64,000 bases of DNA from an uncultured virus (IMG/VR IMGVR_UViG_3300042691_034458). Taxonomy: Duplodnaviria; Heunggongvirae; Uroviricota; Caudoviricetes. The stretch spans positions 1 through 64,000 of the IMG/VR virus record IMGVR_UViG_3300042691_034458. One strand, written 5' to 3'. How positions within the stretch are numbered: the first letter of the stretch is position 1; the number at the start of each line of letters is the position of its first letter. Shown one piece after another: positions 3,645 to 59,167 of this stretch. The notes under the pieces were generated by a model. It searched no databases. It saw only the letters and a program-made list of their open reading frames with translations, and was not told the DNA's origin. A program made the translations under genes and the position numbers.

Positions 3645-3686
3645 TTTTTTTAAAATCAACTATATTTATATATAAAAAATAATAAA

Positions 3687-3860: not shown

Positions 3861-3872
3861 AAATATAAAAAA

Positions 3873-31207: not shown

Positions 31208-31218
31208 AATTATAAATA

Positions 31219-32756: not shown

Positions 32757-32757
32757 G

Positions 32758-33825: not shown

Positions 33826-33826
33826 A

Positions 33827-34748: not shown

Positions 34749-34881
34749 TAATACTTTTTATGAAAAATTAAAAAGTAATTTTAATAACTAAATAGTTATT
34801 ATTTGTAAAACGATATTTTTCTATTTATATCTAAAATATAATTTTTATTTTATATTAAAAATAAACATATAATTTATAATT

Positions 34882-35175
34882 ATGGAAAAAATTGAACAGC
34901 ATGAACTGTCTTTAAAAATTAAAGCGATGTTTAATGATGAACGTAACAAGACAAAAAAAGAAGAAAGACCTGAATTCTTATTTTGTAATCACACAAAGGA
35001 AGTTAAACAAGTTTTAATTGATTCAGCGGATGTTATTTTTAATAAGTTACTTGATAGTTTATCTTATTGCGATGAGGGAACAATTAGAAATAACTTAAAT
35101 TCATTTATAAATGATTTGGTTTTGTATGTAGAAAAAGAAGTTAATGCTATTCTTATTGAAGAAAAGAAAATTTAA
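34882..35175 (+). CDS. Hypothetical protein
   Basis: 97 aa ORF followed by a terminator. Confidence 0.6.
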   Translation: MEKIEQHELSLKIKAMFNDERNKTKKEERPEFLFCNHTKEVKQVLIDSADVIFNKLLDSLSYCDEGTIRNNLNSFINDLVLYVEKEVNAILIEEKKI

Positions 35176-35192
35176 TAAAAAAGTTTAAAAAC

Positions 35193-35230
35193 AAAAAATA
35201 AATCCCATAAATTGTGGGATTTATTTTTTT
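35193..35230. terminator. Bidirectional rho-independent terminator
   Basis: AAAAAATAAATCCCAT...GTGGGATTTATTTTTTT between convergent genes. Confidence 0.85.
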
Positions 35231-35248
35231 AGAAAAACGAAGCAAAAA

Positions 35249-37069: not shown

Positions 37070-37156
37070 TAAATTTTTTGATTTTTTTAATTATTATTTA
37101 TATATAAATATAAATCAAAACTAAAGTAATAAAAATTATTACTAATGTTTTTTTAT

Positions 37157-37759
37157 TTAATTTTTAAACTTATATAAACATAAACCAACGGAATCAAATT
37201 TTAAATTATCAAAATTTGAATTTTTTTTGTTTGCATGAAGTTGTTCTTGTAAAATCCATTTTTTAGATTTTTCCATGTAATCTTTTATGATTATGGATTT
37301 GGTTGAATAACCTTTATCATACGGTCTATAATAATCCCAATCATGCATACAAAAATATGTTCCATCTTCTATATTTTGCTCTAATAATATGATATCATCA
37401 TATGCTATATTTGGGTCTTCAGGTCCGTCAAACATTATAAAGTTGGGCTTAATATTTGATTCTAATAAATTGACGAGCATTTTTTGTGACTGCTCTTTAA
37501 AATACTTTACAAATGGAAATTCATTAAAAAACTCTTCTGTTGGTTTTCTTATTGGATCACAAGTAAAAATTTTCGAATTTAAATTATTATTTTTTATTGA
37601 TTGAGATATAAAATAAGTAGAACCTCCACCGTCACCAGTACCAACCTCAAAAATAATATTAGGTTTTATTTCCGAAATCCAATTATATAATTTATATCTT
37701 TCATATGGTAACATTTCACCATTATATGTTATTTCTCTAAAATTTATTTTTTCATCCAT
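37157..37759 (-). CDS. Class I SAM-dependent methyltransferase
   Basis: IFEVGTGDGGGST, IMFDG and MHDW motifs (Methyltransf_24-like). Confidence 0.8.
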   Translation of the reverse strand: MDEKINFREITYNGEMLPYERYKLYNWISEIKPNIIFEVGTGDGGGSTYFISQSIKNNNLNSKIFTCDPIRKPTEEFFNEFPFVKYFKEQSQKMLVNLLESNIKPNFIMFDGPEDPNIAYDDIILLEQNIEDGTYFCMHDWDYYRPYDKGYSTKSIIIKDYMEKSKKWILQEQLHANKKNSNFDNLKFDSVGLCLYKFKN

Positions 37760-37762
37760 ACT

Positions 37763-38392
37763 TTAATTTATTTGTAAATTATCAATAAAAAGGTAATCAT
37801 GTACCACAAATTTATCTATTTTAGAATAGTTGTTTTTTTTCATAAAATCAAAAATTTCATCTTTATGTGTCGCCTCTATTAAAATATACTTAGGTCTGTA
37901 TTTTTTAATATTCATTCCCATTAATACTTCTAACTCATGACCCTCAACATCCAATGAAAAAAAATCAATTTTTTCTACTTTTTTTTCGTCTAAAATTGTT
38001 TCTAGTTTTTTTGTTGTTAAACTTAAAACATTTTTTTTTAAACTTTGACAGCGTTCGCCTTCTATTATCCAATCATTATCAGCGTCTTCTGATTTTCTAG
38101 AATTTTTTATAAAAGACATTAGATTAACATCATAAAAAATAATTTCTTCATTTTCTGTATTTGATAGACAACAATTATAACAATTTGAGTTTGGTCTATT
38201 TTTTTTCATTAATTCAAATTTATGTGGTAATGCTTCTATTAAGATACCGCTCCAATTTTTATAGAATTCTAAATGCGCTGTATTTGATTGAAACATTCCA
38301 TCATTTCCTCCAACTTCTATATAAAACCCAAATTCAAAATTTAGGTACCTATCAATAATTTGTTTATCTATTTTTTCAACACCATAATACAT
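37763..38392 (-). CDS. FkbM-family methyltransferase
   Basis: YIEVGGNDG..SNT, WSGILIE and IDFFSLDVEGHELEVL motifs. Confidence 0.9.
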   Translation of the reverse strand: MYYGVEKIDKQIIDRYLNFEFGFYIEVGGNDGMFQSNTAHLEFYKNWSGILIEALPHKFELMKKNRPNSNCYNCCLSNTENEEIIFYDVNLMSFIKNSRKSEDADNDWIIEGERCQSLKKNVLSLTTKKLETILDEKKVEKIDFFSLDVEGHELEVLMGMNIKKYRPKYILIEATHKDEIFDFMKKNNYSKIDKFVVHDYLFIDNLQIN

Positions 38393-38394
38393 AC

Positions 38395-39198
38395 TTATAA
38401 TTCTTTAGATTTATTTTTTATTAAATTTAACCAATAACTATATTTTAAACTTTCTCTGCTATTATTTTTTACTTTTTTTATTTCATTTTTTATAAAAACA
38501 AAATCTTTTAATTTTTCTTCATCGTTAATATAAACAACTGGTAAATTTTTATATATTTTTTCATATATTATTTTGTAATCATTAAATGGTCCTACAACTA
38601 TTGGTATGCCTCCGAGATAAAGAGTTTCATATGTACGAATACATTCAATTCCATTTCCTCTTGGGGAGATTACACCAAGATATGATTTTACATAATTACT
38701 AAATTCTTTAAAAGAAATTTCATCATAAGAATCTACATAATCAAGTTCATTACAAATATTTTTTATTTTTTGTCTTAAATCATAATTTGTATTTACCCTA
38801 AAATTAGAAATCAATTTTTCTTTTATTATTGGCTGCGGAATCAAATGTGGGTTTAGTAAATATTCTTTTTTTTCAAAAATACCTTCATTTATTATACCAT
38901 GACCTAATCTAATAGGTAATATATCTATTTCAATACCCAACGGTATTGGAGTGACTTTATCACTATTACAATTTGTGTTAGTTGCAAAAATGTGATAAAC
39001 ATTTTCAGGACATAAAGATAATCGTCTATCGTCAAAAGTTATGTCACCATTTGCTATTATTAGAACACACTTATTATTTTTATTTTTTAATCTTATAAAT
39101 TCTTTTTCTATAAAATCTATTTTACAAAAAACTATTTTTTCGTCATCATGTAAATCATTACAGAACCTAGTCATTTGAATTAACTCATGATTAATCAT
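38395..39198 (-). CDS. Exostosin/GT47-like glycosyltransferase
   Basis: ISPRGNGIECIRTYETLYLGGIPIV motif; start probably ATG 39198 or 39201 rather than TTG 39237. Confidence 0.7.
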   Translation of the reverse strand: MINHELIQMTRFCNDLHDDEKIVFCKIDFIEKEFIRLKNKNNKCVLIIANGDITFDDRRLSLCPENVYHIFATNTNCNSDKVTPIPLGIEIDILPIRLGHGIINEGIFEKKEYLLNPHLIPQPIIKEKLISNFRVNTNYDLRQKIKNICNELDYVDSYDEISFKEFSNYVKSYLGVISPRGNGIECIRTYETLYLGGIPIVVGPFNDYKIIYEKIYKNLPVVYINDEEKLKDFVFIKNEIKKVKNNSRESLKYSYWLNLIKNKSKEL

Positions 39199-39676
39199 CA
39201 TTATTAATTTTTTTTTTAATTTTAGCAGGGTTTCCAAAAACTAAACTATTATCTGGAACATCTTTTGTAACGACAGAACCAGCACCTATTAAACTATTTT
39301 CACCAATAACTATACCGCAAATTATAACACTATTAGCACCAATTGAACATCTTTTCTTAAATAAAGTTTTTCTAAACCTATCATTATTTTTCCAATCACC
39401 ATCAACTTTTGGTCTATAATCATTTGTTGTTACCGTATTTGGACCTAAAAATACGTTGTCCTCTAATGTAACACCCTCATAAATTAATGAATTATTTTGT
39501 ATTTTACAATTATTACCAATAATAACGTTTGGACCGATATAAACCCCTTCACCAATAGTACAATTTTTACCTATTTTTGCGTTTTTACAAACATGTGAAA
39601 ATGCCCATATTTTAGTATTTTCACCAATATCTTCTGTCTCAACTATTGATGTTTCATGTAAAAAATAATTTTTCAT
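39191..39676 (-). CDS. Hexapeptide-repeat sugar N-acetyltransferase (WbpD/FdtC-like)
   Basis: IGENTKIWAFSHV, IGKNCTIG, TND..P and GAGSVVTKDVP..GNPA motifs. Confidence 0.9.
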   Translation of the reverse strand: MKNYFLHETSIVETEDIGENTKIWAFSHVCKNAKIGKNCTIGEGVYIGPNVIIGNNCKIQNNSLIYEGVTLEDNVFLGPNTVTTNDYRPKVDGDWKNNDRFRKTLFKKRCSIGANSVIICGIVIGENSLIGAGSVVTKDVPDNSLVFGNPAKIKKKINNDD

Positions 39677-39678
39677 AA

Positions 39679-40467
39679 TTAGATAAATTTTGGAATATTA
39701 AAAAATAAATTATCTAAATAAGTTTTATGATGATTATAAGGTCTACATGCATGACATTCTATAAAGAAATTAGAATTTAATTTTGATATATCATAAGATA
39801 CTTCATTATGTCTATGACAATCAATTCGTCTATTTAAAAAAGTTGACGCTAAACTCAAGCTTGAAATTCTTGATTTATCTTCAAACGAGGAAAGTATTTT
39901 ACAACTATAAGCTTCATCCGTACCCCATTTATCTCCCCACATTGTTTTAAGATTTAAAGAATTTATTTTTTTTATTTCCAATTCAAATGATTCTTCAAAT
40001 TTATAAATATCACAAAAAGTCTGTCCTTTTGCAATATGATATGCTGAAGGACTAAATCCTCCTTCATCCCATTTTTTGGGATATTTGTTTTCAAATTTAT
40101 ATTGGTCGTCAATTAACATAATATAATTATTTTCGTCAATTAAGTTAATAGTTTCTTTAAAAAAATAAGTCCCTAATGGTATTTGATCAATACCCATTAT
40201 AATACAAGTTTCACTTGGATAAAATTTAGTAAAATAAAATAAAGCCCAAGTGTATTGCCATTCTGAGATATTAGATATTTTTTTCTCAATTAAAATTTCA
40301 CCGTATTCAGTAGATAAATTTGCATTTTTTAATTCATCTTCTTCACCAAAAAAGATTAAAGTTGGGGTTATGCCGAATTTTTCTTTATAAGTATATGATA
40401 AATTATTCCAAAAATCATAATATAAAGGGTTATTATTAGTTACTAATATTACTCTATCTATTTTCAT
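39679..40467 (-). CDS. Putative glycosyltransferase (GT-A-like)
   Basis: GIDQIP DxD-like motif and WGTDE; lies inside the glycan cluster. Confidence 0.5.
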   Translation of the reverse strand: MKIDRVILVTNNNPLYYDFWNNLSYTYKEKFGITPTLIFFGEEDELKNANLSTEYGEILIEKKISNISEWQYTWALFYFTKFYPSETCIIMGIDQIPLGTYFFKETINLIDENNYIMLIDDQYKFENKYPKKWDEGGFSPSAYHIAKGQTFCDIYKFEESFELEIKKINSLNLKTMWGDKWGTDEAYSCKILSSFEDKSRISSLSLASTFLNRRIDCHRHNEVSYDISKLNSNFFIECHACRPYNHHKTYLDNLFFNIPKFI

Positions 40468-40473
40468 TTGTTA

Positions 40474-41283
40474 TTAATTAATTTGTACATTATGACTTGC
40501 GTGATAATAAGAAATTGTTTTACATTCACTGTAATGTTTTTCGTTAATTAGCGTTGATAAAATCATACCCCAAATAGGTAAATCGCCCCATCTATTACTA
40601 TATATTCCGTGAGATAAATCAATTTTTTTTAAAATTTTATTCAAAATTTTATTATTTCTTAAAAAGTCAACATTAACAATCATAAAATTAGTATAAGGAC
40701 ATTTGATATTATTAAATGTTTTATGTGGCTGAATATTTGTTTCAATTAAAAATTCGTTTAATAATCTTTCAAGACCCACAATAACTCTACTATCATCTTG
40801 ATCTTGAAATTTTGGGCTTACAAAATAAATTTCTTTTTCATTCATCTCATTTAAAATATTATTATCAAATTTGGTAATAAAACAATCTTCATCAATTCTT
40901 ATAATAAATTTATAATCCTTAAGGTATTCTAAAAAATCTATTGACCAAAAATGACACATATGTTTATAACCTAACGGAAAATGTGAGGATAAAAAATTAG
41001 GAGGACATAAATCATTATTAATTATATTTTTATTATTATCGAACGCTTTTTTATTTCCACATTCTTTAACATTTTTAAAAATTAAACTTTGTTTTGAATT
41101 ATTGGAAATATATAATTGATGATCTTCCGGAATATTTCCTTCATGAAATATTACCATATCAAAATCAAAATTAGATTTACTAATTATATTTTCATAAATT
41201 AATGTATTACGTTTAATTAACGAATTATATTGTGATACATTTTCATAGCCTCTAGTTAAGACTGTTATCGCTATTTTGTTCAT
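40474..41283 (-). CDS. KRE2/Mnt1-like alpha-mannosyltransferase (GT15-like)
   Basis: GYKHMCHFWS, RIDED, YTNF and NRWGDLPI motifs match KRE2-family hallmarks. Confidence 0.8.
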   Translation of the reverse strand: MNKIAITVLTRGYENVSQYNSLIKRNTLIYENIISKSNFDFDMVIFHEGNIPEDHQLYISNNSKQSLIFKNVKECGNKKAFDNNKNIINNDLCPPNFLSSHFPLGYKHMCHFWSIDFLEYLKDYKFIIRIDEDCFITKFDNNILNEMNEKEIYFVSPKFQDQDDSRVIVGLERLLNEFLIETNIQPHKTFNNIKCPYTNFMIVNVDFLRNNKILNKILKKIDLSHGIYSNRWGDLPIWGMILSTLINEKHYSECKTISYYHASHNVQIN

Positions 41284-41291
41284 ATCTTTAT

Positions 41292-42017
41292 TTAATTTTT
41301 ATACATAAAGTTTAATATATGTAAATCCTCGACATCACAAAAATCATATTGAGTCCTAATCCAATCACTTTCTTTTTTAGGGATACCGGTATCAGCTTGA
41401 CTTCTAACACACCTATCTTTCCAATCATCAAATGTTTTATGGTGATAATGATTTAATTGTGCAATATCGTCAGTCCCATTTTCATTAAATGGTCCAGTAA
41501 AATAATTTTTAGCTGTATTCATAATTTTTACATTCGGATAATGAGGACTAACCATAATACTATCTGATTGTAAATTTAGTATTGTTTTAATATGTTTATC
41601 AACATCTTTTTGTCTTATAGTAAATTGTTTAATTAATGAATTACTATTTTCACTTCTTGTCAACCTACCACAAGCGCCGAAAAAAACCCAATTAATTCCA
41701 ATACCATAAGGATTATTAAACTCGTTTATAAAATCTTTAATATTTTGATGTTTTTTTAAAACTAAAAATTCATCAACATCAAAGAAAGCTACCCAATCAT
41801 ATTTAGTTTTATATTTTTTAATAAAATCATTATACGCGGATATCTGTCTAGCAATACCATCATATTTTATTTTTTTAATAAAATCGTGTTCTAAATTACA
41901 AATCCAATCATTTTCATAAATGATTATATCATCAAAACCTAATTTTTTATGATACAATACCCATTCTTTTATATAGAAATCTTCCATTTTAGCTATACAA
42001 ACTAATGCAACTCTCAT
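41292..42017 (-). CDS. Glycosyltransferase, GT92/GT2-like
   Basis: YIKEWVLYH..LGFD.I.IYEN, WVAFFDVDEF and LNHY motifs. Confidence 0.85.
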   Translation of the reverse strand: MRVALVCIAKMEDFYIKEWVLYHKKLGFDDIIIYENDWICNLEHDFIKKIKYDGIARQISAYNDFIKKYKTKYDWVAFFDVDEFLVLKKHQNIKDFINEFNNPYGIGINWVFFGACGRLTRSENSNSLIKQFTIRQKDVDKHIKTILNLQSDSIMVSPHYPNVKIMNTAKNYFTGPFNENGTDDIAQLNHYHHKTFDDWKDRCVRSQADTGIPKKESDWIRTQYDFCDVEDLHILNFMYKN

Positions 42018-42018
42018 A

Positions 42019-42759
42019 TTATAACAATTTATTATAATTATTTATAAACTTTTGTTCACCAATTCCTTGTGTTTGATGACTATCAAATTGAAAATGTGTA
42101 ATTGTATTATTTAGTATTTTATATGGTATTTGATTTAACAAATAAAAAACACTAATACTTCTTTCAATCTCATGTCCGGAAAAAATTGATTTTTTAATAT
42201 CGTTAACTAAAATATCAACCCATTCCATGTATTCATTAAACCTATCAAGTTTAAACGTATGATTAGATGTCATACTGCAAATAGTATTTTTAGGTAAAGA
42301 CTCAATAAAATCAATTATATTAATATTATAGTTTTTAATCAAAGAAGTAATTAAATTTTGACTCCAAGGTGTATGACGTAAATATTCATATGAATGAACG
42401 TTATGTGGTATATAGCCAAAAATATCAAATTTTTTAGTTTCTATAACTTCATTTAAAATCTCCTCTAAATTAGATATTGTATTTATATCATATTCAAATA
42501 AGTTTATATACTTACCTTTAAGTAAATTATTTTTCCATAAAGCATACCAACCGGTATATGATGTTAATTTAGGATATTCTTCAATATTATTTTCTAAATT
42601 TCTTGCTATAATCACATTATCTAAATTTTCTAATTTAGATATATCGTTTTTACCTAAAAAAACATACGTTAAATTACTAAAATTATTAAATTTTTTATGT
42701 CTAATAAAATCTAAAATAATATCTTGATTATGAACAAATATAAATGTTTGAAACGTCAT
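42019..42759 (-). CDS. Putative glycosyltransferase-like protein
   Basis: FEYD and GHEIER motifs; lies inside the glycan cluster. Confidence 0.45.
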   Translation of the reverse strand: MTFQTFIFVHNQDIILDFIRHKKFNNFSNLTYVFLGKNDISKLENLDNVIIARNLENNIEEYPKLTSYTGWYALWKNNLLKGKYINLFEYDINTISNLEEILNEVIETKKFDIFGYIPHNVHSYEYLRHTPWSQNLITSLIKNYNINIIDFIESLPKNTICSMTSNHTFKLDRFNEYMEWVDILVNDIKKSIFSGHEIERSISVFYLLNQIPYKILNNTITHFQFDSHQTQGIGEQKFINNYNKLL

Positions 42760-42767
42760 GAATAAAC

Positions 42768-44267
42768 TTAATTAGTTATGAAAAACTTATTTAATTTTCT
42801 CATATTATCAATAACAAATGGTGCTAAATTTTTGTTATAGTCGTTATTCATTAAATAAGAATCCTCATCATTTTCTTTTCTAGTCTGAGACTCATAATGA
42901 TAAGAAACTAAATTACCATCCAAATAATTTTCAAAACCTAAAGTAAGGTAATTAAGATTTAATTCGACATCTTCAAAACATGATTGATATGTTTCATTAA
43001 ACATACCACATTTTTCAAATAAAGTCTTTTTAGTCATCATTAATCCGCCCGTATTACCAATTACTTTTTTAAGTGACGTTGAATGATTATAGTATGATTT
43101 AAATCCAACGTGTCCAAGAACAAATTTTTTATTCTTATCGAATCCTGCAAAGATTCCATCATGCTGAACCGTATTATCTCCGAAATGTAATCTACATCCA
43201 ACAGTTCCAGCTTTATTATTTTCTTTAAAAACTTTTAACATACCATAAATAACATTATTTAATAACTTAATATCGTTATTGCAAAATAATAAAAATTCAT
43301 AATCATTTGTAACATGATTTTTTACAACATCGTTATTAATTTTAGCAAAATTATAATAATCATATTCAATTAATTTAATATCACCGAGTGGTAAGATATT
43401 ATCTTTAATCCATTCTTTTTCATCCGCCGATGAACCAGTATCTGCAATAAAAATATCAAATAAGTTTGGATTGCAATGGTCATAAAAAGATTTAACACAA
43501 TCAAATAACATTTGAACCTTACCTTTAGTTGGGATTATTACCGCAACTTTACTGAAACCTTTTATTGACTTTTCTTTTATCTCAGGAACGAATATTTTTT
43601 CTGGTTTTAAATCTAATGGTAATTTACTTCCCCATTTTTCCAAGAATTTATTTTTGCTCTCCCAAAACTCTTGGTTTGGTTGTCCAATTGATTGATGTGT
43701 GATTTCAAAAGAAGATGTAACACCAATTTTAACTCCATCTAAATAATTAGGTACGCAAAATAAATGATCATAAAAATGGAATTTACCTATTGTTTCATCG
43801 AATCTATGTTTGATTTTATTTTTATCAAATGCAATAAACAATCCATCAATTGTTACAACGGGAATTAAAAATGGAAATTTTGGTGAATATTTACTTAACC
43901 ATTTCTTTTGACCCTCAGGGTGATGATAAACTTGACCAACCATTGTTTGTTGCATTCTTTCCCAATAAACACCTGATTCCGGAAAATAACAAGAACCAGC
44001 TTTACCAATTATACCAAAATCAGGATTTTCATTAAAATCTTTTGATAACTTTACTCCCCAGTTGGTTTCTAATTTTATATCATCATGAATCAAAACAACA
44101 ATATCATTGTTTGATTCTGAAATAATTTCATTATAAACAGTTGATAATGATTTAATTCCGGGATTAACTTTCTCAATAACTTGAACGTTTTTTAAACCAC
44201 AAGTATCGATGATGTATTTAGTAAAGTTTGGTTTACTAGATTTTGTACTATATCCGATTGTAATCAT
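42768..44267 (-). CDS. Two-domain GT2 glycosyltransferase
   Basis: VLIHDD...IDGLF..FDE..FHFYD (domain 1); VAVIIPT..DTGS..LFCNND..FEDVEL..HYES (domain 2). Confidence 0.85.
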   Translation of the reverse strand: MITIGYSTKSSKPNFTKYIIDTCGLKNVQVIEKVNPGIKSLSTVYNEIISESNNDIVVLIHDDIKLETNWGVKLSKDFNENPDFGIIGKAGSCYFPESGVYWERMQQTMVGQVYHHPEGQKKWLSKYSPKFPFLIPVVTIDGLFIAFDKNKIKHRFDETIGKFHFYDHLFCVPNYLDGVKIGVTSSFEITHQSIGQPNQEFWESKNKFLEKWGSKLPLDLKPEKIFVPEIKEKSIKGFSKVAVIIPTKGKVQMLFDCVKSFYDHCNPNLFDIFIADTGSSADEKEWIKDNILPLGDIKLIEYDYYNFAKINNDVVKNHVTNDYEFLLFCNNDIKLLNNVIYGMLKVFKENNKAGTVGCRLHFGDNTVQHDGIFAGFDKNKKFVLGHVGFKSYYNHSTSLKKVIGNTGGLMMTKKTLFEKCGMFNETYQSCFEDVELNLNYLTLGFENYLDGNLVSYHYESQTRKENDEDSYLMNNDYNKNLAPFVIDNMRKLNKFFITN

Positions 44268-46413: not shown

Positions 46414-47663
46414 TTAAATTATTGATTTATAAAATTCCGCTCTGTTTTTAGTAACAATTGATAATTCATATTTATCTTTGACTGTTTCATAAAGTCTTTC
46501 ACCAAGGTCTTTAGCCCAATTTGGATTTTGAATAAGTTTCTTCATGTACTTTGCCCAATCACCATGATTTCTATTTTCATTTACCAAAAGTGCATTACCA
46601 TCAACAAATTTACCATTTTCCAATGCATGGGTCAAGTCAATGGTATATGGACCAACATCTGAAGCTATAATTGCTTTCTTATAGAAACCCGCTTCAATAA
46701 CTTTAAGCTGCGATTTCATTCGATTAAACATATGATTCATAATTGGTGCTAAGGATACATCAAATTTTGTATAATTCTTTGCATATGATGTTATTGGTCG
46801 GGTCCAAACTCTTTCATATGGTTCATTCTTAAATTTAGTTGTATCAAATTCAACAAATTTATCCAATTCTTTTTTATATTCCGGTGAAACCAAATTGTAT
46901 TTATTTGTAAAAATTTCTTCATATTTAACCCACACCGTTTCATGTGGTTTAATTGGTCTTTTCTTTTGTTCACCAGTTTGCTGATTAATTTCAGTTATTT
47001 CACCTCTAGTATCAAAACCACAAAGGAAAACTTTCATTTTATCTTTTTCTGATGAAAGTGCGTTAAATGTACCATCCAACAATTTTAAATCATGTAAGTG
47101 AGATGAACCACCTAACCAACCAAAACGAAGTCTCTCATCTTCTTCTGTAACACCTTTAAATTGTTCTGTTTTTGTATCAATTGCATTTGGAAATACAACA
47201 ACATCATTATGGAATTTTCTTATTTGGTCAGCAAAAATTTCTGTTGTTGTTGTAATATATTTTGCATATCTAAGACTTTCAATAATCTTCTCATTAATTT
47301 TATGTTGTACAATTACCGAATGCAAAGGATGTTCTTTTGTGGGTAACCAATAATCATCGATATCTGCAATCGTGATAATACCCATATTGTTAAGCATTTT
47401 AACAATTTCTGGAGACCTATCATAATCTCTACCAATACTTCGATGGTAGTGAACAATTTGATATTGCTTCCAATAATTTAAATTATCAACTTGTGGGTCG
47501 TAATCGATATCCACATGAAAATCATCCGGATACATGTTTTGTAACATTATGTGGGGGTCTACTGATCTGTAGGAACCTAACCAACCCCCGAACGGTCAGA
47601 TGGGAGTACTAAGACTCGAATCTTTTCACGACCGTTAAGGGGCGAAATTTGTGTGTTTGTCAT
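46414..47663 (-). CDS. GT-B glycosyltransferase split across two frames (28-codon N-terminus 47663-47580, TAG at 47579-47577, body continuing in the -1 frame from 47577)
   Basis: Upstream ORF MTNTQ...KIRVLVLPSDRSGVG* supplies the missing first beta-strand and Gly loop. The downstream frame reads GSYRSVDPHIMLQNMYP...DIDDYW...GWLGGSSH...FNRMKSQLKVIEAG. Confidence 0.75.
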
Positions 47664-47778
47664 CTTTATCTATAAGATATAGTAATAATTTATTGTTTTT
47701 ATAAATTATAATCAAAATTTTTGATTAGTTCAAGTTTTTTATAATTTATTTTTTTAAACCAATAGAATATTTATAATT

Positions 47779-48540
47779 ATGAAAAAGATAAAATTAACAG
47801 AATCAGATTTATATAGAATTGTTAGAAAGGTTCTTCTTGAGCAAGAGGAAGAAAAGAGAAGTTTTACATTTTCTCCGGGAACATTTGCGTCTTTTATAAC
47901 ATCATCATCAGGTGAAAGATTTGTTAAACATCTTAATAACAAATATGATGAGGTTATTATTAATGGTGATTTGGATTTAGATGGAACACCAATTCAATCC
48001 TTACCTGATAATCTTCATGTTGGTGGGGATTTGAATTTATATGGAACACCAATTCAATCCTTACCGGATAATCTTTATGTTGGGAGAAATTTGGATTTAA
48101 GAGGAACACCAATTCAATCCTTACCGGATAATCTTTATGTTGGGAGAAATTTGGATTTACAAGGAACACCAATTCAATACTTACCGGATAATCTTCATGT
48201 TGGGGGAAGTTTGTGGTTAAATGGAACACCAATTCAATACTTACCGGATAATCTTCATGTTGGGGGAAGTTTGGATTTAAGTGGAACACCAATTCAATCC
48301 TTACCGGATAATCTTTATGTTGGGGGATATTTGAATTTACATGAAACACAAATTCAATCCTTACCGGATAATCTTTATGTTGGGGGATATTTGAATTTAC
48401 ATGAAACACAAATTCAATCCTTACCGGATAATCTTTATGTTGGGGGGACAATTTATATTAATGGAATACCTTTAAATGATAATGATAAGTTGGTTGCAAA
48501 ATATAAAGAAAAATATAGAATTGATAGAGCACTTATTTAA
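47779..48540 (+). CDS. Leader-bearing 20-aa LRR protein, copy B (8 repeats plus cap)
   Basis: MKKIKLTESDLYRIVRKVLLE|Q leader; 60-nt tandem repeats; ATATTTAT at 47767-47774. Confidence 0.9.
   Translation: MKKIKLTESDLYRIVRKVLLEQEEEKRSFTFSPGTFASFITSSSGERFVKHLNNKYDEVIINGDLDLDGTPIQSLPDNLHVGGDLNLYGTPIQSLPDNLYVGRNLDLRGTPIQSLPDNLYVGRNLDLQGTPIQYLPDNLHVGGSLWLNGTPIQYLPDNLHVGGSLDLSGTPIQSLPDNLYVGGYLNLHETQIQSLPDNLYVGGYLNLHETQIQSLPDNLYVGGTIYINGIPLNDNDKLVAKYKEKYRIDRALI
47962..48480 (+). repeat. Tandem 60-nt coding repeats, near-identical to those at 1-290
   Basis: Constant GGAACACCAATTCAATCCTTACCGGATAATCTT(C/T)ATGTTGGG block plus a variable NNN-TTG-NNN-TTA-NNN segment. Confidence 0.95.
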
Positions 48541-49120
48541 CCTTCTTAGCCTTTGTAATTTTACCCTCAAAAATTGTTTTACCAACTTTGAACTGGATAG
48601 TTTCATTTACTTTTGATGTATTTTCAATCAATAACCCATTTTCCTCTAAAAGTTCTTCAAATACTTCGCGCATCATTGACTTTAATTCATTTTTATTCGG
48701 TAATGATGTAATTTGTTTTGATTGAACATTAGACGGAGTTTCTTGTCGTTTTGTACCCATCAATCTGCTAGCTTTCTCAACTAATTCATCAGATAGTGCT
48801 GTTGTTGGTGGTTGCGGTTGCTGAATGGGGTGTTCAATCATTAATTTCTTAATTTCATCTGGAAGTCTTGAATTTAAAATTCTATCCTTAACAGGAACCG
48901 CTGAATTAATTGGTTTTGGTTTTACTTGCTGTTCTGAAAGATATTCCTGTGGGATATTATATTTAACATCGGGAACTTCAAAATCGTCAACCTGAGGTCT
49001 TTCTACATTTATTCTAGTATTTTCACTTATTCCTATATCACTAGTCTGACCTCTAGGAATTTTATTGTGTTTATCCATTATTTTTTTGGATATCATTAGT
49101 TTTTCAATAAGTGCGTCCAT
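48533..49120 (-). CDS. Hypothetical protein
   Basis: 195 aa in a minus-strand operon. Confidence 0.75.
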   Translation of the reverse strand: MDALIEKLMISKKIMDKHNKIPRGQTSDIGISENTRINVERPQVDDFEVPDVKYNIPQEYLSEQQVKPKPINSAVPVKDRILNSRLPDEIKKLMIEHPIQQPQPPTTALSDELVEKASRLMGTKRQETPSNVQSKQITSLPNKNELKSMMREVFEELLEENGLLIENTSKVNETIQFKVGKTIFEGKITKAKKVK

Positions 49121-53699: not shown

Positions 53700-56432
53700 A
53701 TGGAAAAAAAACTAAATATTTTAGCACACGCCTCTTTTATTGGTAAAACCGGTTATGCTAATCATGCTAAATCATTTTTTTGCGCGTTAAATAAGTATGC
53801 TAATGTTAAAGTTAGAAATCTGACAGTAGGTGATAGTTGGTGTGGATTATCGGAAAAACCTCATGATAAAGAAGAGTATTTTACCGATGAAATGCGTAAT
53901 ATGCTTATACTGCAAACATTATACGAACAAGATAATACAAGAAAAGATTATCCAATATACGGTTACGATGGGTCTTTCATTCCTGATATTCATATCGTTT
54001 TAAATGATGTTAATAACCCATATTTTTATGATAACTATGATGGATATCGCATAGCTTATAATGTTTGGGAATCAACGGAATACCCAAAAGATTTTTTTGA
54101 AAGATTATTTTATTTTCATGAGGTTTGGGTACCATCTAAATGGCAAAAAGATAATTTAATTAAACAAGGTTACCCAAAGGAAAGAATTTCGGTTGTTCCA
54201 GAAGGTGTTGACCCTGAAGTTTTTAAACCAACAAATGAAATTGATTTATCAGAAAAGTTTACATTTTTACTTTTTGGTAGGTGGGAATATAGAAAATCAA
54301 CAAGTGAAATAATTAGAGCGTTTAATGAAGAATTTAAAAATGAGGATGTTAACTTAGTTGTTTGTGCAAATAATCCATTTGCTAATGATGGGTTTAAAAC
54401 AACTGAAGAAAGAATAATTGCAAATGGTTTGGAAAATAAAAATCTTAAAATAGTTAATTTTCCAACTAGAGAAGAATATATTAATTATTTAAAAAATGGT
54501 CATGTTTTTATTTCATGTGCTAGAAGTGAGGGGTGGAATCTACCTTTAATAGAAGCAATGGCTTGTGGTACGCCATCAATTTATTCAAACTGGGGAGCAC
54601 AACTTGAATTTGCTGATGGATTAGGAATTCCTGTTAAAGTTACTGATTTTGTTTCAGCTAAAAACCAAGATAATTCATTTGTTGGCGATTATATAGAACC
54701 AGATTTTAACGATTTGAAATTAAAAATGAGAATGGTCTATAATGATTATAAATCATTTAAAGAAAATGCTTTATTAGAATCTGAAACAATTCACAGAAAT
54801 TTTAATTGGGATTTGGTGGCTAAAAATGCTAATAATATTTTACAAAAAAAGGTAAATGACTTTGTTTTTGTTACTACCGGTAACGAAAATTATATGCCTC
54901 TTATTGAATGTTTAGTTAAGTCTTTAAATGAGTTTTCAAAATTTAAAATTATTGTTTATGGGATAAATTGTGATGTACCATTTGATTATCCAAATTTAAT
55001 AAAAAGAAGATTAAATATTGAAGAATACTCAGAACATGATAGGTGGTTTTGGAAGCAATACGCATGTATTGAGTCAATTAACGAATCATTTGAAAATTTT
55101 GTTTGGGTTGATGGGGACGTTGTTGCAAATTTTAATATTGATAATATAATCAATTATTTCCCTTATGTTGGGAATTATCCGCTATCTGACATACACAGAC
55201 AAAAAGAATTCTATGGATTTTTTTATGAAAATGGTGTTAAATATGAGCAACTATTTAATGAAAATCTTAGTAAATACTTAAATGTTACACCACATTTACC
55301 ATTTATGCACGTTTGTCTTTTCATTTACAATAAAACCTGCAAATGGTTTTTTGATGAGATTATAAACCTCTATAAATCAACAGATTTAAATAAATATAGG
55401 CATTTATTCTTATGGAATGATGAAGGTGCTGATAATGCAATTAGATCGAAGTTTAATTTAAAAAACCATTTACCGTTATCTAATTTTGATGTTTCATCAT
55501 ATGATGGCGAATCATATGAGTTTATTAATAACCAACTATCTGATTTTTATACATTTTGGGAGAAAGATGGTCCATATAATTTTAATAAAATTTATGGACT
55601 TCAATATATTCCTGAAAATAAAAAAGATATTATCTACTTCCACGGTAACAAAAATGTTGACGCAGCAAATAAAATGATTGATTTTATTAAAATAAAAAGA
55701 GACAATTCTTTTTACGAATCAAATAATTTTTATACTTCAAAAAATGTAATAACAGATTTTAGTGATATAAAAAATATTGAGGGCGGAACTATTTGGGTTG
55801 CTGAAAATTACGGTTGGTCACACGCAATATATCATGAAATTTATAACTTACAGGATTACTATTTAAGTAGAAAAAAACAAATAAATGATGGGGATATTGT
55901 TGTTGATTTAGGAGGTAATATTGGTATCTTCAATAGATGGGCTTATTCACAAGGAGCGTCTAAAGTTATCTCATTTGAACCAGATAGAAGATATTTTGAA
56001 TTATTGAAGAAAAACACAAGTCCTAATTCAATTCTTTTTAATGCGGCGATGTCTGATAGGATTGGGGAGTTGAGTCTATTTGAGAGCGACCATTTGGGTG
56101 GTTCAAATATATTTGGTGTGCCTAGTAACACAAAAAATTACAAGGTCCGGACTTATACATTAGATTTTTTATTTGATACAGATTTAATTACTCACATTGA
56201 CTTTTTAAAGGTTGACGTTGAGGGTGCAGAACATCTAATTTTTAAAGGAATTAGCGATAACAATTTATCTAAAGTTAAAACTATTTCAATGGAATATCAT
56301 CACTCACATTTTAATTTTGATGAAAAATTACGTGATGATTTTATTAATAGATTTGTTAGTCTTGGCTTCAATTCTTATCTTTTATTTATGGGGACAAATA
56401 ATGCATTACAAATGATATATTTTTATAGATAA
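53700..56432 (+). CDS. Three-domain protein: GT4 glycosyltransferase + GT-A-like domain + FkbM methyltransferase
   Basis: TGYANH, RSEGWNLPLIEAMACG (GT4); WVDGD and WNDEG (GT-A); VVDLGGNIG, FEP and LKVDVEGAE (FkbM). Confidence 0.85.
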   Translation: MEKKLNILAHASFIGKTGYANHAKSFFCALNKYANVKVRNLTVGDSWCGLSEKPHDKEEYFTDEMRNMLILQTLYEQDNTRKDYPIYGYDGSFIPDIHIVLNDVNNPYFYDNYDGYRIAYNVWESTEYPKDFFERLFYFHEVWVPSKWQKDNLIKQGYPKERISVVPEGVDPEVFKPTNEIDLSEKFTFLLFGRWEYRKSTSEIIRAFNEEFKNEDVNLVVCANNPFANDGFKTTEERIIANGLENKNLKIVNFPTREEYINYLKNGHVFISCARSEGWNLPLIEAMACGTPSIYSNWGAQLEFADGLGIPVKVTDFVSAKNQDNSFVGDYIEPDFNDLKLKMRMVYNDYKSFKENALLESETIHRNFNWDLVAKNANNILQKKVNDFVFVTTGNENYMPLIECLVKSLNEFSKFKIIVYGINCDVPFDYPNLIKRRLNIEEYSEHDRWFWKQYACIESINESFENFVWVDGDVVANFNIDNIINYFPYVGNYPLSDIHRQKEFYGFFYENGVKYEQLFNENLSKYLNVTPHLPFMHVCLFIYNKTCKWFFDEIINLYKSTDLNKYRHLFLWNDEGADNAIRSKFNLKNHLPLSNFDVSSYDGESYEFINNQLSDFYTFWEKDGPYNFNKIYGLQYIPENKKDIIYFHGNKNVDAANKMIDFIKIKRDNSFYESNNFYTSKNVITDFSDIKNIEGGTIWVAENYGWSHAIYHEIYNLQDYYLSRKKQINDGDIVVDLGGNIGIFNRWAYSQGASKVISFEPDRRYFELLKKNTSPNSILFNAAMSDRIGELSLFESDHLGGSNIFGVPSNTKNYKVRTYTLDFLFDTDLITHIDFLKVDVEGAEHLIFKGISDNNLSKVKTISMEYHHSHFNFDEKLRDDFINRFVSLGFNSYLLFMGTNNALQMIYFYR

Positions 56433-59167
56433 TGGCGCACGTAGAACAAAGAAATTTTTGCATTAAAGTAAAAGAAAAGTTTCCTGATTTTTTTAAAAAT
56501 AAAAAAGTCTTGGATATTGGTTCATTAGACATAAATGGTAGTAATCGAGATTTATTTGAGGATTGTGATTATATAGGATTAGACGTTGGTGAAGGTAGGA
56601 ATGTCGATGTGGTATCTGTTGGTCATTTATATGATGCTCCAGATAGTTTTTTCGATACGATTATTTCTACTGAAGTCTTTGAACACGATATGTTCTATGA
56701 GGAAACCGTTAAAAACATAATGAGAATGTTAAAACCCGGTGGCTTATTTGTATTTACCTGTGCCGCACCGGGAAGACCGGAGCATGGAACTAGACGATGT
56801 GGTGAAGAGTGCGCTCCATTATTGATACAAATTTCAGAAGAATGGGCTGACTATTATAAAAATTTAGATAGCCATGATTTTAAAATTATACCAAGTTTTA
56901 ATGAAACATTTCCCGATGGTTATTTTGAATTAAATAATTTATATCTAGAAATACCATCTGATTTGTATTTTTATGGTATAAAAGGTGGTGAGAAATATTA
57001 CATAAATAATATTGTTACAGAATACAATAAACCAGAATTTAATGAACATATTTTTGTTATTGATTCTTGGCCTGACGATGAAAAAAAAGAAAATGATTTA
57101 GTTAATTTAATTAAAAAATTAAAATCATTTAATATTCAAATTTTACTAGCCGGACATTATCCGATTAAAGAAGAAATACAAAAAATGGTGGATTATTATA
57201 TTTTTGATAAAAATAATCCATTATTACTTTCTAGTGAATTTAATTCGTTTGATGTTGGTAGTGGAAGATGGGCAGAAACTTCAGAATATAGAATAGATAT
57301 GTCAATGGTCTTTCATCATGATTATGCAATATGGGAAACAATGAGAACGGCATTTAATTTTTGTAAATTTTTAAATAAAAAATACATTCATTTCTTAGAA
57401 TATGATAATAATCCAAATGTTTTCCAATATAAACAATGTTTTATTGAACAAATAATTAATCATGATGCAATCATATACGAATATAGTTTAGATTCAGCAA
57501 AAAATTTAAATCCATATTGTGCCACTTTTATTTTTTCAATAAAAACAGATATCGCATTAAAATTAATTTCACAAATAAATTCAAAAACGGAATATTTTAC
57601 TAACAAACCTAAAGGTTGGCAGTTAGAGCGAGTTTTTTTAGAAAAATTAACTAATGTTACAAATAACATAAAACTTTCAGAATATATTGCAAATGAAAAT
57701 GAATTAAATACTCAAGCAGTTTGGAATAGAGATGGTATAGTTAAAAATGGTGCAATATTTCAATCCTACTTAGCTGTTGATTATAAAAATCATTTATATT
57801 TAGAACTAATATCTGGTTTTGATAGTAAAAAAGCTGATAAAGATTATATTATAGAGATTGAGTATCTTTCAACAAGAAAGTTTATAACATTAAAAAAAGA
57901 TAACATGATGATTGTTCCGTTAGGGGAATATCACGTTGGAGGTTATGTTAAATTATATTATGAGGGGGTTTTAATTTTTAATGAATTTCTATATAAATCA
58001 GCAAAAAAATTTAGAGAAGTGAGTTCAATTATTTTAAAAAATGAGTCACTACCTGAACCCAAAATTAATATTAATTTTATTGATGGGGCGTTTGTTGAAA
58101 TATTAGATGATATTGATTCTAAATATGATGTTGAATTTATAGATAAGCAAACAAATCGTGTAATTTTTGGAACAACAATAAAAAATAATTGTTGGGCTAA
58201 ATGTAATAAAAAATATTTTATTGATTGGAAAATCAAAATTAAATCACAATACGGTAAAGAATATACATATGACTTAGATTTAAAAAATCAAAATGTTTTG
58301 ATTTCATTTGAGTCTAAATCCTTAGGGGATACTTTAGCGTGGATGTCATATGTTGAGGCTTTCGGTATCAAACACGGATGTAATGTTATCTGCTCAACAT
58401 TCCACAATGATTTATTTGTAAACCAATATAAAAATATTAAATTCGTTAAACCGGGAAATACAGCTAGTAATATAATTGCTCTTTATAGATTAGGTGTTTT
58501 TTATAATGGAAATAATTTTAATGAGGAATATCATTTAATGGACCCAAAAAAGGAACCACTATTAAAAATAGCTTCCGACATATTGGGATTAGAATATAAA
58601 GAATTAAAACCAAGTCTTCCCGTTTTATCAATAAAAAAAGAAAAACGAGTTTGTATAGCAACACATTCAACCGCACAATGCAAGTATTGGAATAACCCAA
58701 CTGGTTGGCAAGAAGTTGTTGATTTCTTGATAGAAAATGGATATGAAGTTAGATTGTTGTCAATTGAAGAAGATGGATATATGGGTAATAAAAATCCTAT
58801 CGGTGTTACACAACAACCAAAAGGTGAAATAACAGATGTCCTTAAAACATTACAGGAATCGGAATTTTTTATTGGTATTAGTAGCGGACTAAGCTGGTTA
58901 GCTTGGGCATCTGGAATTAAAACAATACTAATATCCGGTTTTACTGATAAATATTTAGAACCATTAAATGATATTTATCGGGTAATAAATAAAGAAGTAT
59001 GTCATGGGTGTTGGCACACACATAAATTTGACGCTGGCGACTGGAATTGGTGTCCAATACACAAAGGAACATCTAGAGAATTTGAATGCTCTAAATCAAT
59101 AACCGCAGACCAAGTTATTAATTTAATTAAAAATGAAAATTTATGTTCAAATTGCGTCATATCGTGA
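56432..59167 (+). CDS. SAM methyltransferase + middle domain + Aah/TibC-like protein O-heptosyltransferase
   Basis: VLDIGSLDING..STEVFEH..LKPGG; INFIDGAFVEI...SKSLGDTLAW...FIGISSGLSWLAW...CHGCW..WNWCP.HKGT.REFECSKSIT. Confidence 0.85.
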   Translation: MAHVEQRNFCIKVKEKFPDFFKNKKVLDIGSLDINGSNRDLFEDCDYIGLDVGEGRNVDVVSVGHLYDAPDSFFDTIISTEVFEHDMFYEETVKNIMRMLKPGGLFVFTCAAPGRPEHGTRRCGEECAPLLIQISEEWADYYKNLDSHDFKIIPSFNETFPDGYFELNNLYLEIPSDLYFYGIKGGEKYYINNIVTEYNKPEFNEHIFVIDSWPDDEKKENDLVNLIKKLKSFNIQILLAGHYPIKEEIQKMVDYYIFDKNNPLLLSSEFNSFDVGSGRWAETSEYRIDMSMVFHHDYAIWETMRTAFNFCKFLNKKYIHFLEYDNNPNVFQYKQCFIEQIINHDAIIYEYSLDSAKNLNPYCATFIFSIKTDIALKLISQINSKTEYFTNKPKGWQLERVFLEKLTNVTNNIKLSEYIANENELNTQAVWNRDGIVKNGAIFQSYLAVDYKNHLYLELISGFDSKKADKDYIIEIEYLSTRKFITLKKDNMMIVPLGEYHVGGYVKLYYEGVLIFNEFLYKSAKKFREVSSIILKNESLPEPKININFIDGAFVEILDDIDSKYDVEFIDKQTNRVIFGTTIKNNCWAKCNKKYFIDWKIKIKSQYGKEYTYDLDLKNQNVLISFESKSLGDTLAWMSYVEAFGIKHGCNVICSTFHNDLFVNQYKNIKFVKPGNTASNIIALYRLGVFYNGNNFNEEYHLMDPKKEPLLKIASDILGLEYKELKPSLPVLSIKKEKRVCIATHSTAQCKYWNNPTGWQEVVDFLIENGYEVRLLSIEEDGYMGNKNPIGVTQQPKGEITDVLKTLQESEFFIGISSGLSWLAWASGIKTILISGFTDKYLEPLNDIYRVINKEVCHGCWHTHKFDAGDWNWCPIHKGTSREFECSKSITADQVINLIKNENLCSNCVIS

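What the first reader, a model, noticed from the sequence alone, without database searches (positions are those of the whole stretch)
47548..47663. Glycosyltransferase interrupted at GGT-TAG-GT inside a GC-rich structured element: candidate programmed bypass or -1 frameshift
Seen (minus strand): ATG 47663 opens 28 codons ending ...TCG GGG GTT GGT TAG. A second GGT starts 5 nt after the first (47577-47575), in the frame of the 377-aa GT body. A matched-codon hop gives the seamless ...PSDRSGVG-SYRSVDPHIMLQ. The segment 47551-47650 is 50% GC by hand count, far above its AT-rich flanks. It has mutually exclusive pairings: CCCC-TT-AACGGTC (47642-47630) with GACCGTT-C-GGGG (47597-47586), or GGGGGT (47589-47584) with ACCCCC (47558-47553) enclosing the stop. 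Established: T4 gene 60 bypassing uses a Gly take-off codon, UAG, a stem-loop and a matched landing codon. Inference: recoding that throttles this enzyme. Alternatives are a -1 slip or phase variation on the G5 run, a 5-nt excision scar, or an assembly error.
Basis: partly seen in the sequence, partly recalled or inferred. Interest (0 to 1): 0.8.

Follow-up and report, generated by a model that had tools for sequence, protein, structure and literature searches.

The report
Five-base ribosome hop in phage glycosyltransferase
A lake phage's sugar-transferase gene is broken by five real bases that start with a stop codon; over a hundred related versions and a strongly conserved RNA hairpin just upstream indicate that ribosomes are pushed across the gap, a miniature of the rare T4 gene 60 hop that nobody has yet tested at the bench.

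Summary
The 5-nt break is real: it is identical in two other viral contigs and in contigs of three RNA-library runs. Of 228 distinct homologous junctions, 112 carry a 5-44-nt gap at this codon, in all three frames and with all three stops. Skipping from a Gly/Ser codon to a matching codon (same residue in 109 of 112) restores the uninterrupted length exactly. All 45 non-redundant gapped versions have a ~60-nt hairpin closing on the take-off codon, with compensatory changes at three wobble positions; 7 of 98 ungapped versions fold comparably. The hairpin ends 5-7 nt before the landing codon in 33 of 44. The cassette travels with a homing-endonuclease-like gene, which this locus lacks. Best reading (0.85): hairpin-driven translational bypass that tolerates a selfish insert. 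No protein product has been shown. The scan reported this family before on other DNA (e1-5369304, e1-5375126); six literature searches found no description. Verdict: a new variant of T4 gene 60/MobA-type bypassing, not a member of that family.

The parts
47580..47663 (-). Upstream ORF of 28 codons: N-terminal extension, then strand b1 and the PSDxxGVG loop of the glycosyltransferase, ending in the take-off codon
   Evidence: 24-28 codons to Val in 112 of 112 gapped junctions against 16-17 in 109 of 116 ungapped; b1 = residues 4-9 in the model of an ungapped homologue
47630..47643 (-). 5' arm of the driver hairpin, encoded in the N-terminal extension
   Evidence: pair probabilities 0.89-1.00 for 13 of 14 positions, one unpaired; partner covariation
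47584..47597 (-). [quoted passage not shown]
   Evidence: synonymous bias in gapped versions, e.g. GGG at codon -2 in 88 of 112 against 10 of 116
47580..47582 (-). Take-off codon GGT (Gly28)
   Evidence: GGY or AGY in 112 of 112 gapped junctions; pyrimidine-ending in 67 of 111 ungapped Gly codons
47577..47579 (-). Stop codon TAG directly after take-off; its last base is the first base of the landing codon
   Evidence: a stop follows take-off in 6 of 6 and 9 of 10 gapped junctions of the two (overlapping) searches that did not ask for a stop
47575..47577 (-). Landing codon GGT, 5 nt after take-off; decoding would resume at 47574
   Evidence: first two bases match take-off in 110 of 112
46414..47574 (-). 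Body of a GT-B fold, GT4-like glycosyltransferase (386 codons plus stop; the hop product would be 414 aa)
   Evidence: PHROG 7162 glycosyltransferase E 5e-43; weak PF13692; model of ungapped homologue pLDDT 93, Foldseek best hits GlgM, MshA, BshA, PglA
47779..48540 (+). 253-aa repeat protein on the opposite strand, standing where relatives have the homing-endonuclease-like gene; unrelated to it
   Evidence: further copies at 84-88% identity elsewhere in G001
48533..49120 (-). 195-aa gene of unknown function that resembles the usual upstream neighbour of the GT gene
   Evidence: N- and C-terminal likeness by eye to the 115-member neighbour cluster; no Pfam or PHROG hit

Best explanation
The gap is a programmed translational bypass (stop-hop) left by a homing-endonuclease cassette. 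Origin: a free-standing NUMOD3/Vsr-like endonuclease gene inserts just upstream of the GT gene and replaces its 5' end, to about 30 nt past the junction, with its own version: an N-terminal extension, recoded wobble positions and a 5-15-nt insert. The insert probably spoils the endonuclease's own target (inferred by analogy with MobA). Decoding: the ribosome reads 28 codons and stalls with peptidyl-tRNA-Gly on GGU and UAG in the A site. The 5' arm of a ~60-nt hairpin is already outside the ribosome; the 3' arm is still inside. Zipping the last 11-16 pairs pulls mRNA out, moves the ribosome forward and covers the way back. The tRNA re-pairs on the GGU 5 nt on, 6 nt past the helix end, and decoding resumes, giving a full-length 414-aa GT4-like enzyme. 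This locus has lost the endonuclease but keeps hairpin and gap. Shown by sequence comparison: gap, matched codons, stop, hairpin, covariation, mosaic spread, endonuclease linkage, purifying selection. Inferred: that ribosomes hop, that zipping drives the hop, and the immunity role.
For: One rule explains 112 junctions with gaps of 5,6,7,8,9,11,12,14,15,44 nt in all frames (74/32/6) and all stops. Take-off and landing encode the same residue in 109 of 112; 6 of 8 Ser take-offs land on Ser AGY; 49 pairs differ only by C/U at the wobble base, which fits tRNA re-pairing better than a DNA or RNA repeat. Codons between the stop and the next ATG are under protein selection: R, S, P, H in 45 of 45 with 5, 6, 4, 2 synonymous codons, while an ATG lies within 12 codons in only 14 of 45. 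dN/dS of the body is 0.03-0.13 in 14 gapped pairs. Hairpin: mean -30.1 kcal/mol, z<-2 in 45 of 45 gapped against 7 of 98 ungapped. With the register fixed on invariant bases only, free positions -7, -4, -1 form Watson-Crick pairs in 33, 38, 33 of 40 (p 0.0002 each), also within ten structural classes (p 0.0001, 0.0013, 0.0001). Helix end to landing is 5-7 nt in 33 of 44; gap length rises with helix reach, rho 0.69. Endonuclease gene is the nearest upstream ORF in 51 of 87 gapped against 4 of 95 ungapped loci, and 19 of the other 36 keep its C-terminal remnant. Near-identical bodies differ in gap state, with divergence ending ~30 nt after landing (L054/L053, L287/L144, L321/L139); 39 changes of state on a 172-tip tree. 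L178 and L200 keep an extension, lack the gap, and their hairpin has decayed. No deletion in RNA-library contigs.
Against: No protein, ribosome-profiling or reporter data. Most gapped junctions came from patterns that demanded a stop, so 111 of 112 is inflated; the unbiased counts are 6 of 6 and 9 of 10. Landing is imperfect in 16 of 112 (13 GGY to GGA, 3 change residue) and in L334, which my parser missed (GGT to GAT). Four ungapped loci carry the endonuclease with its motif intact, which a strict immunity role does not predict. Sequences are related, so counts are not independent events, and the ruler correlation is not phylogenetically corrected. RNAalifold on the MAFFT alignment found only 4 pairs (-0.12 kcal/mol) because bulges shift the 5' arm; the covariation rests on my own anchored test. 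For this window's own lineage only near-identical copies exist, so its dN/dS (0.10-0.19) is against distant relatives near saturation, and its hairpin is among the weaker ones. RNA-library contigs may be DNA and drop rare variants.
Confidence: 0.85

Rival explanations
1. The gap is removed at the RNA level, by a micro-intron cut and ligated by a trans-acting enzyme guided by the hairpin, or by a hairpin-driven forward jump of RNA polymerase between the two GG repeats.
For: A strong conserved hairpin abuts the gap; direct GG repeats flank it; only assembled contigs, not raw reads, could be laid.
Against: 3 of 3 bridging RNA-library contigs keep the 5 nt. An in-frame stop follows take-off in 6 of 6 and 9 of 10 unbiased cases, even where the gap is in frame. 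The repeat matches at the level of codon wobble and switches between Gly and Ser. No conserved sequence or structure at the 3' boundary. No Rfam match beyond chance.
Confidence: 0.05
2. Each version is rescued by an ordinary recoding event: stop readthrough for in-frame gaps, -1 or +1 frameshifting for the others (here a -1 slip on the G5 run).
For: 68 of 112 gaps are 6 nt and could be read through; this window has a G5 run and an open -1 frame from it.
Against: Needs three mechanisms for one shared hairpin. It does not explain why a matching codon sits exactly where it restores homologous length. The G5 run is in 8 of 45. A -1 slip here would replace the Val that is invariant in 76 of 76 ungapped proteins and add two residues at the start of helix a1. 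No stimulatory structure downstream.
Confidence: 0.04
3. The gene is dead, or split: a 28-aa peptide plus a body re-initiated at ATG 47547.
For: The window has an in-frame ATG 10 codons after landing, giving a 377-aa ORF. Ungapped alleles are common, and the endonuclease could spread a harmful allele.
Against: That ATG is absent in 31 of 45 gapped versions; the residues between stop and ATG are conserved with full synonymous variation; bodies are under purifying selection; the short form would lack b1, the Gly-rich loop and most of helix a1.
Confidence: 0.04
4. The hop is real but has been kept as a regulator that lowers or times enzyme output, for example by sensing release factor, tRNA supply or ribosome load. 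This concerns purpose and is compatible with the best explanation's mechanism.
For: Hairpin and gap persist where no full endonuclease gene is the upstream neighbour (36 of 87). The phage encodes tRNA-Gly(UCC) and tRNA-Ser(UGA) but not Gly(GCC) or Ser(GCU), so take-off may depend on host tRNAs.
Against: Near-identical phages do without the gap; 116 of 228 junctions are ungapped; gain and loss are frequent; the hairpin must be kept anyway for the gene to work while the gap is there.
Confidence: 0.15
5. Assembly error or phase-variable homopolymer.
For: None found.
Against: Identical in L001 and L002, in G001 at 99.997% over 73,467 nt and in three RNA-library runs; four other 5-nt GGT-TAG-GT junctions differ in flanking sequence; the insert is not in a homopolymer.
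Confidence: 0.01

Closest known systems
Phage T4 gene 60 bypass and the MobA element (Manning and Atkins, 10.1101/2022.08.31.505936; Wills et al., 10.1101/2024.12.09.627546)
   Same: Matched take-off and landing codons with wobble allowed, mostly Gly; stop after take-off; N-terminal extension supplied by the cassette; free-standing homing endonuclease; repeated insertion at one site; loss of the endonuclease with the gap retained, then loss of the gap with the extension retained; a 5' stem-loop.
   Different: Gap 5-15 nt (one of 44) against 20-50; host gene is a GT4-like glycosyltransferase, not topoisomerase, and is not split into two genes; NUMOD3/Vsr-like nuclease as the rule; no take-off or A-site hairpin in the short gaps; no 3' barrier; no invariant nascent-peptide residue; the 5' stem is the dominant, covarying signal and reaches the take-off codon, whereas in MobA elements it is described as not well conserved; Ser AGY variants.
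Synthetic 'stop-hops' (9 nt for one amino acid), as reviewed in Atkins et al. 2016, PMC5009743
   Same: The 6-nt class (68 of 112 junctions) is exactly codon-stop-matched codon.
   Different: Those were low-level events in synthetic constructs without stimulators; the review passage says no natural in-frame stop-hop was known. Here it would be natural and hairpin-assisted.
Streptomyces phage phiHau3 terminase UUA gaps (Antonov et al. 2023, PMC10732093)
   Same: Short (7-10 nt) non-coding blocks in a phage gene at conserved junctions, with experimental support for bypassing at one site.
   Different: Triggered by a hungry UUA codon and proposed to be regulatory; three genes known. Here a stop codon, over 100 junction variants, and an endonuclease cassette.
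Magnusiomyces mitochondrial byps (as described in the introduction of 10.1101/2022.08.31.505936)
   Same: Mobile inserts made harmless by bypassing between matched codons.
   Different: 27-55 nt, unused sense codon instead of a stop, mitochondrial ribosomes, many genes per genome; here one site per genome (the only strong-hairpin candidate in 256 kb).

Membership tests
T4 gene 60 / MobA bypass element | Matched take-off and landing codons | tested here: met
   GGT/GGT here; same residue in 109 of 112, same G34-type tRNA possible in 96 of 112
T4 gene 60 / MobA bypass element | Stop or hungry codon directly after take-off | tested here: met
   TAG here; 6 of 6 and 9 of 10 in searches not requiring a stop
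T4 gene 60 / MobA bypass element | Take-off / A-site stem-loop with stable tetraloop inside the gap | tested here: not met
   Gap too short; gap bases mostly unpaired and A-rich; only the 44-nt L136 has a hairpin in the gap
T4 gene 60 / MobA bypass element | 5' stem-loop upstream of take-off | tested here: met
   45 of 45 with z<-2; covariation at three wobble positions
T4 gene 60 / MobA bypass element | Mini Shine-Dalgarno 5-7 nt before landing | tested here: inconclusive
   The G run ends 7 nt before landing here, but the same bases are the 3' arm and change to GGCG or GGAG with compensation in relatives
T4 gene 60 / MobA bypass element | Nascent-peptide signal with conserved residues | tested here: inconclusive
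   No invariant residue in the extension; the recurrent Pro sits on the C-rich 5' arm. Length to take-off is narrow, 24-28 codons to Val, so a peptide-length effect is not excluded
T4 gene 60 / MobA bypass element | 3' forward-slippage barrier | tested here: not met
   60 nt downstream: mean z 0.01, 2 of 43 with z<-2
T4 gene 60 / MobA bypass element | Insertion in the topoisomerase large-subunit gene, splitting it | tested here: not met
   Host is a GT-B glycosyltransferase
T4 gene 60 / MobA bypass element | One protein from two frames shown by mass spectrometry or reporter | not testable with these tools
   No proteomic or reporter data available
Programmed -1 frameshift | Conserved slippery run | tested here: not met
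   G5 in 8 of 45 gapped versions; 74 of 112 gaps need no frame change
Programmed -1 frameshift | Stimulatory structure just 3' of the site | tested here: not met
Vsr-like free-standing homing endonucleases (upstream gene of relatives) | NUMOD DNA-binding part plus C-terminal D..ExxGxxWH nuclease motif | tested here: met
   NUMOD3 in 7 of 7 scanned; PHROG 3339 'homing endonuclease' in 3 of 3; motif in 55 of 55. The label 'Vsr-like' is my reading of the motif against passages of PMC2677866; no alignment to that family was run
Vsr-like free-standing homing endonucleases (upstream gene of relatives) | Cleaves the insert-free allele and not the gapped one | not testable with these tools
   Indirect only: conversion-like tracts; 4 ungapped loci with the gene argue for caution
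Self-splicing or protein-spliced micro-intron | Joined RNA present in transcripts | tested here: inconclusive
   No deletion in 3 of 3 bridging contigs, but contigs show presence, not absence, and may be DNA

The most novel reading that the evidence does not exclude
This is a one-part bypass device: a single 5' hairpin, zipping as mRNA leaves a stop-stalled ribosome, is enough to move the ribosome a set distance, and the end of the helix acts as a ruler that places the landing codon about 5-7 nt ahead. It needs no A-site hairpin, nascent-peptide signal or 3' barrier, includes natural in-frame stop-hops, can be transplanted into other genes, and is a general way for free-standing homing endonucleases to alter essential coding sequence without introns or inteins.
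Probability: 0.45. Interest if true: 0.9.

Novelty: new variant of a known kind. Interest (0 to 1): 0.8.

Why it matters
Programmed bypassing is established for T4 gene 60 and its homologues, Magnusiomyces mitochondria and, with first experimental support, phiHau3. Wills et al. [quoted passage not shown] This family isolates that one signal in an 89-nt cassette, with dozens of natural compensatory variants and gap lengths from 5 to 15 nt, so the driver model can be tested directly. The 6-nt class would be a natural in-frame stop-hop, which the 2016 review says had no known case. For annotation, these genes are called with a wrong internal start or as broken.

Tried and rejected
Rfam scan of 47300-47900: two matches at E 1.1 and 1.7, far below gathering scores; chance. 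RNAalifold on the MAFFT alignment of 45 cassettes gave only 4 pairs because the 5' arm is out of register; replaced by an anchored pair test. Single-sequence fold of a homologue, started six residues late by my coordinate error, gave pLDDT 34 and was discarded; the alignment-based model was used. No solved structure by sequence for the GT alignment and only a weak I-TevI linker match (E 0.035) for the endonuclease. An internal Shine-Dalgarno 'spring' as in prfB (recalled, not from a call) was considered for the GGG at codon -2; compensated GGC variants favour the stem, though a double role is not excluded. A promoter-like site at 47733-47705 is no more than chance (1 found, 2.0 expected). Contigs of runs X2 and X4 both stop at 47676, 13 nt before the ATG, a weak hint of a 5' end; X1 runs on to 47758. 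Run X3 does not cover the site. A scan of the 256-kb record G001 for other NGY-stop-NG sites gave 6 candidates, only this one with a strong hairpin (-25.9; next -16.5). bS21 was found in 1 of 4 records (G002, a gapped relative), not in G000 or G001, which are incomplete, so the host is not established. tblastn of cultured and deposited phages gave only distant homologues (at most 33% identity); their junctions were not examined. Of 385 loci, 21 were not parsed: 2 further gapped (L334, L373), 3 ungapped variants, 1 truncated, 15 apparent chance matches; they are outside the counts of 112 and 116.

Full report
OBSERVATION. ATG 47663 opens 28 codons ending in GGT, then TAG; a second GGT five bases on is in the frame of the body. 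GC is 0.50. The upstream pairing is a true hairpin, 47643-47584: -25.9 kcal/mol, z -2.85, 0 of 200 shuffles. The proposed alternative pairing has probability 0.000. The break is identical in two other viral contigs and in 3 of 3 RNA-library contigs that bridge it, from three studies; a fourth run does not cover it. These contigs may be DNA and drop rare variants.

THE PROTEIN. The body matches PHROG 7162 glycosyltransferase. A model of an ungapped homologue built on 76 sequences (pLDDT 93) has a GT-B fold closest to retaining GT4-type enzymes such as GlgM, MshA, BshA and PglA. The 28 upstream codons supply strand b1 and the Gly-rich loop, and the gap falls at the start of helix a1. A protein started at ATG 47547 would lack these. 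The gene lies just upstream of an exonuclease, a dUTPase and a GT2 gene. Substrate and acceptor are unknown.

THE FAMILY. With the window, 364 of 385 were parsed into 228 distinct junctions: 116 ungapped and 112 gapped. Gap sizes are 5 (7), 6 (68), 7 (6), 8 (9), 9 (3), 11 (14), 12 (2), 14, 15 and 44 nt; 74 are in frame, 38 are not. Stops are TAA 54, TGA 52, TAG 5; one junction has a sense codon first. Three scans demanded a stop, so the fair counts are those of the two searches that did not: 6 of 6 and 9 of 10. [quoted passage not shown] Take-off is GGY or AGY in 112 of 112. Landing is identical in 47, differs by C/U wobble in 49, is GGA in 13, and changes residue in 3; six of eight Ser take-offs land on Ser. 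Two more gapped loci were missed by the parser: L373 (10 nt, matched) and L334 (9 nt, GGT to GAT, not matched).

THE GAP IS CROSSED IN FRAME. After landing, R, S, P and H are kept in 45 of 45 non-redundant versions with 5, 6, 4 and 2 synonymous codons, although an ATG lies within 12 codons in only 14 of 45. Bodies of 14 gapped pairs have dN/dS 0.03-0.13. For the window itself only distant comparisons exist (0.10-0.19, dS 1.4-2.2).

THE HAIRPIN. Every gapped version has an N-terminal extension (24-28 codons to Val, against 16-17 in 109 of 116 ungapped), and the extension encodes the 5' arm of a ~60-nt hairpin that closes on the take-off codon. Mean MFE is -30.1, z<-2 in 45 of 45; for ungapped, -9.3 and 7 of 98. 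Downstream RNA is unstructured in both groups (2 of 43, 4 of 98). RNAalifold on a plain alignment failed to recover the stem (4 pairs), because bulges shift the arm. I therefore fixed the register on four invariant bases and scored free positions in 40 of 45 sequences (5 ambiguous ones dropped): Watson-Crick pairs at -7, -4 and -1 in 33, 38 and 33 of 40, with four, three and four pair types, against 12.3, 27.8 and 14.8 in permutations (p 0.0002). The signal holds within ten structural classes. The first base of the take-off codon also covaries with the Gly/Ser switch (C-G 18, T-A 6). No ungapped sequence has the perfect anchor (0 of 115). Positions -8 and -9 show no excess. About 14 pairs (11-16) involve bases from -15 onward, and the last 15 nt add a mean -20.6 kcal/mol (-15.5 here). 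The helix ends 5-7 nt before the landing codon in 33 of 44 (mode 7; range 4-13), and gap length rises with helix reach (rho 0.69; not corrected for kinship). L178 has the same extension as gapped L310, lacks the gap and has a weaker, mismatched stem; L200 has decayed further.

ORIGIN. The nearest upstream ORF is a ~300-aa protein overlapping the GT start in 51 of 87 gapped and 4 of 95 ungapped loci with enough flank. It has NUMOD3, matches PHROG homing-endonuclease families and carries a D..ExxGxxWH motif in 55 of 55. Nineteen of the other 36 gapped loci keep its C-terminal remnant. Gap state changes 39 times on a 172-tip tree of the bodies (57 in shuffles, minimum 47). In 3 of 13 sister pairs examined the two genes differ up to ~30 nt past landing and are then nearly identical, as expected of a conversion tract; the other pairs are too diverged to tell. 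The window has no endonuclease here. A multi-copy repeat protein stands on the other strand, but the window's 75-nt cassette is 81-82% identical to six endonuclease-linked ones. I was led to look for the endonuclease and for Ser variants by earlier finding e1-5369304, and tested both. The four ungapped loci with an intact-looking endonuclease do not fit a strict immunity role.

MECHANISM. Shown: the anatomy above. Inferred: stalling at the stop, zipping of the arm still inside the ribosome, a forward slide, re-pairing on the matched codon. This is the driver model that Wills et al. propose for gene 60, in a stripped-down form. Rivals (RNA-level removal, case-by-case readthrough and frameshifting, dead or split gene, artefact) each fail on the spread of gap sizes, the codon-level match or the selection pattern. 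A regulatory purpose is possible but not needed. The host is not established. One gapped relative, G002, encodes bS21, and freshwater bS21 phages were predicted to infect Bacteroidetes (PMC9723584); I did not test whether this phage belongs to those clades.

COMPARISON AND NOVELTY. It works like T4 gene 60/MobA but fails membership: different host gene, no take-off hairpin, no 3' barrier, no invariant peptide residue. Six searches of the held library (0, 8, 1, 2, 2 and 13 papers) showed no listing that describes it; most subscription journals are not held. Papers seen: 10.1101/2022.08.31.505936, abstract and sections 3, 10, 12; 10.1101/2024.12.09.627546, abstract, introduction and section 18; PMC10732093, abstract and section 3.4; PMC5009743, six passages; PMC9723584 and PMC2677866, passages; all others as listings only. 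bioRxiv supplements were not seen. This scan noted the same family on other genomes (e1-5369304, e1-5375126) and similar short gaps beside endonucleases in other genes; those are unchecked notes, not support. This locus belongs to the shortest size class and has lost its endonuclease; the covariation and helix-to-landing counts are my own tests.

VERDICT. Real; most likely a hairpin-driven translational bypass (0.85); new variant of a known kind; interest 0.8.

Noticed in passing
window 47779-48540 (+): 253-aa protein of 23-residue repeats (..GTPIQSLPDNL..), with further copies at 84-88% DNA identity scattered over G001 and many variants in the RNA-library contigs. It stands where relatives have the endonuclease; it may be mobile or a diversifying paralogue family. 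Only a weak Pfam hit (PF20597).
   Followed up: partly
L136 (gap of 44 nt): The only long gap: a sense codon follows take-off, then TAA, then a GC-rich hairpin inside the gap, as well as the 5' stem. It looks like an intermediate towards a gene 60-type cassette.
   Followed up: partly
G001 2182-4325 and 31031-42026: 22 tRNA genes including Gly(TCC), Ser(TGA) and Ile(TAT), but no Gly(GCC) or Ser(GCT), the tRNAs expected to read the take-off codons.
   Followed up: no
window 61549-62342: Self-match at about 80% in inverted orientation over ~700 nt: an imperfect long inverted repeat or repeat-protein region.
   Followed up: no
L011, L034, L063, L163: Endonuclease gene overlapping the GT start with its motif intact, but no extension and no gap. 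Possibly an earlier stage of the cassette or loss of the gap by recombination.
   Followed up: partly
L053 upstream of the GT start: An ungapped allele preceded by what reads as a decayed endonuclease 3' end (..SYGYNLG*..), suggesting that some ungapped alleles are reversions.
   Followed up: no
window 37763-44267 (-) and 53700-59167 (+): Runs of glycosyltransferase-, methyltransferase- and acetyltransferase-like genes by eye (GT2 confirmed for 42768-44267), like the glycan islands that earlier findings describe in related phages.
   Followed up: no
L385 (G002 272389-272547): A complete 308-kb relative with an 11-nt gap encodes ribosomal protein bS21, which binds near the mRNA exit site (PMC9723584); whether it affects hopping is open.
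   Followed up: no
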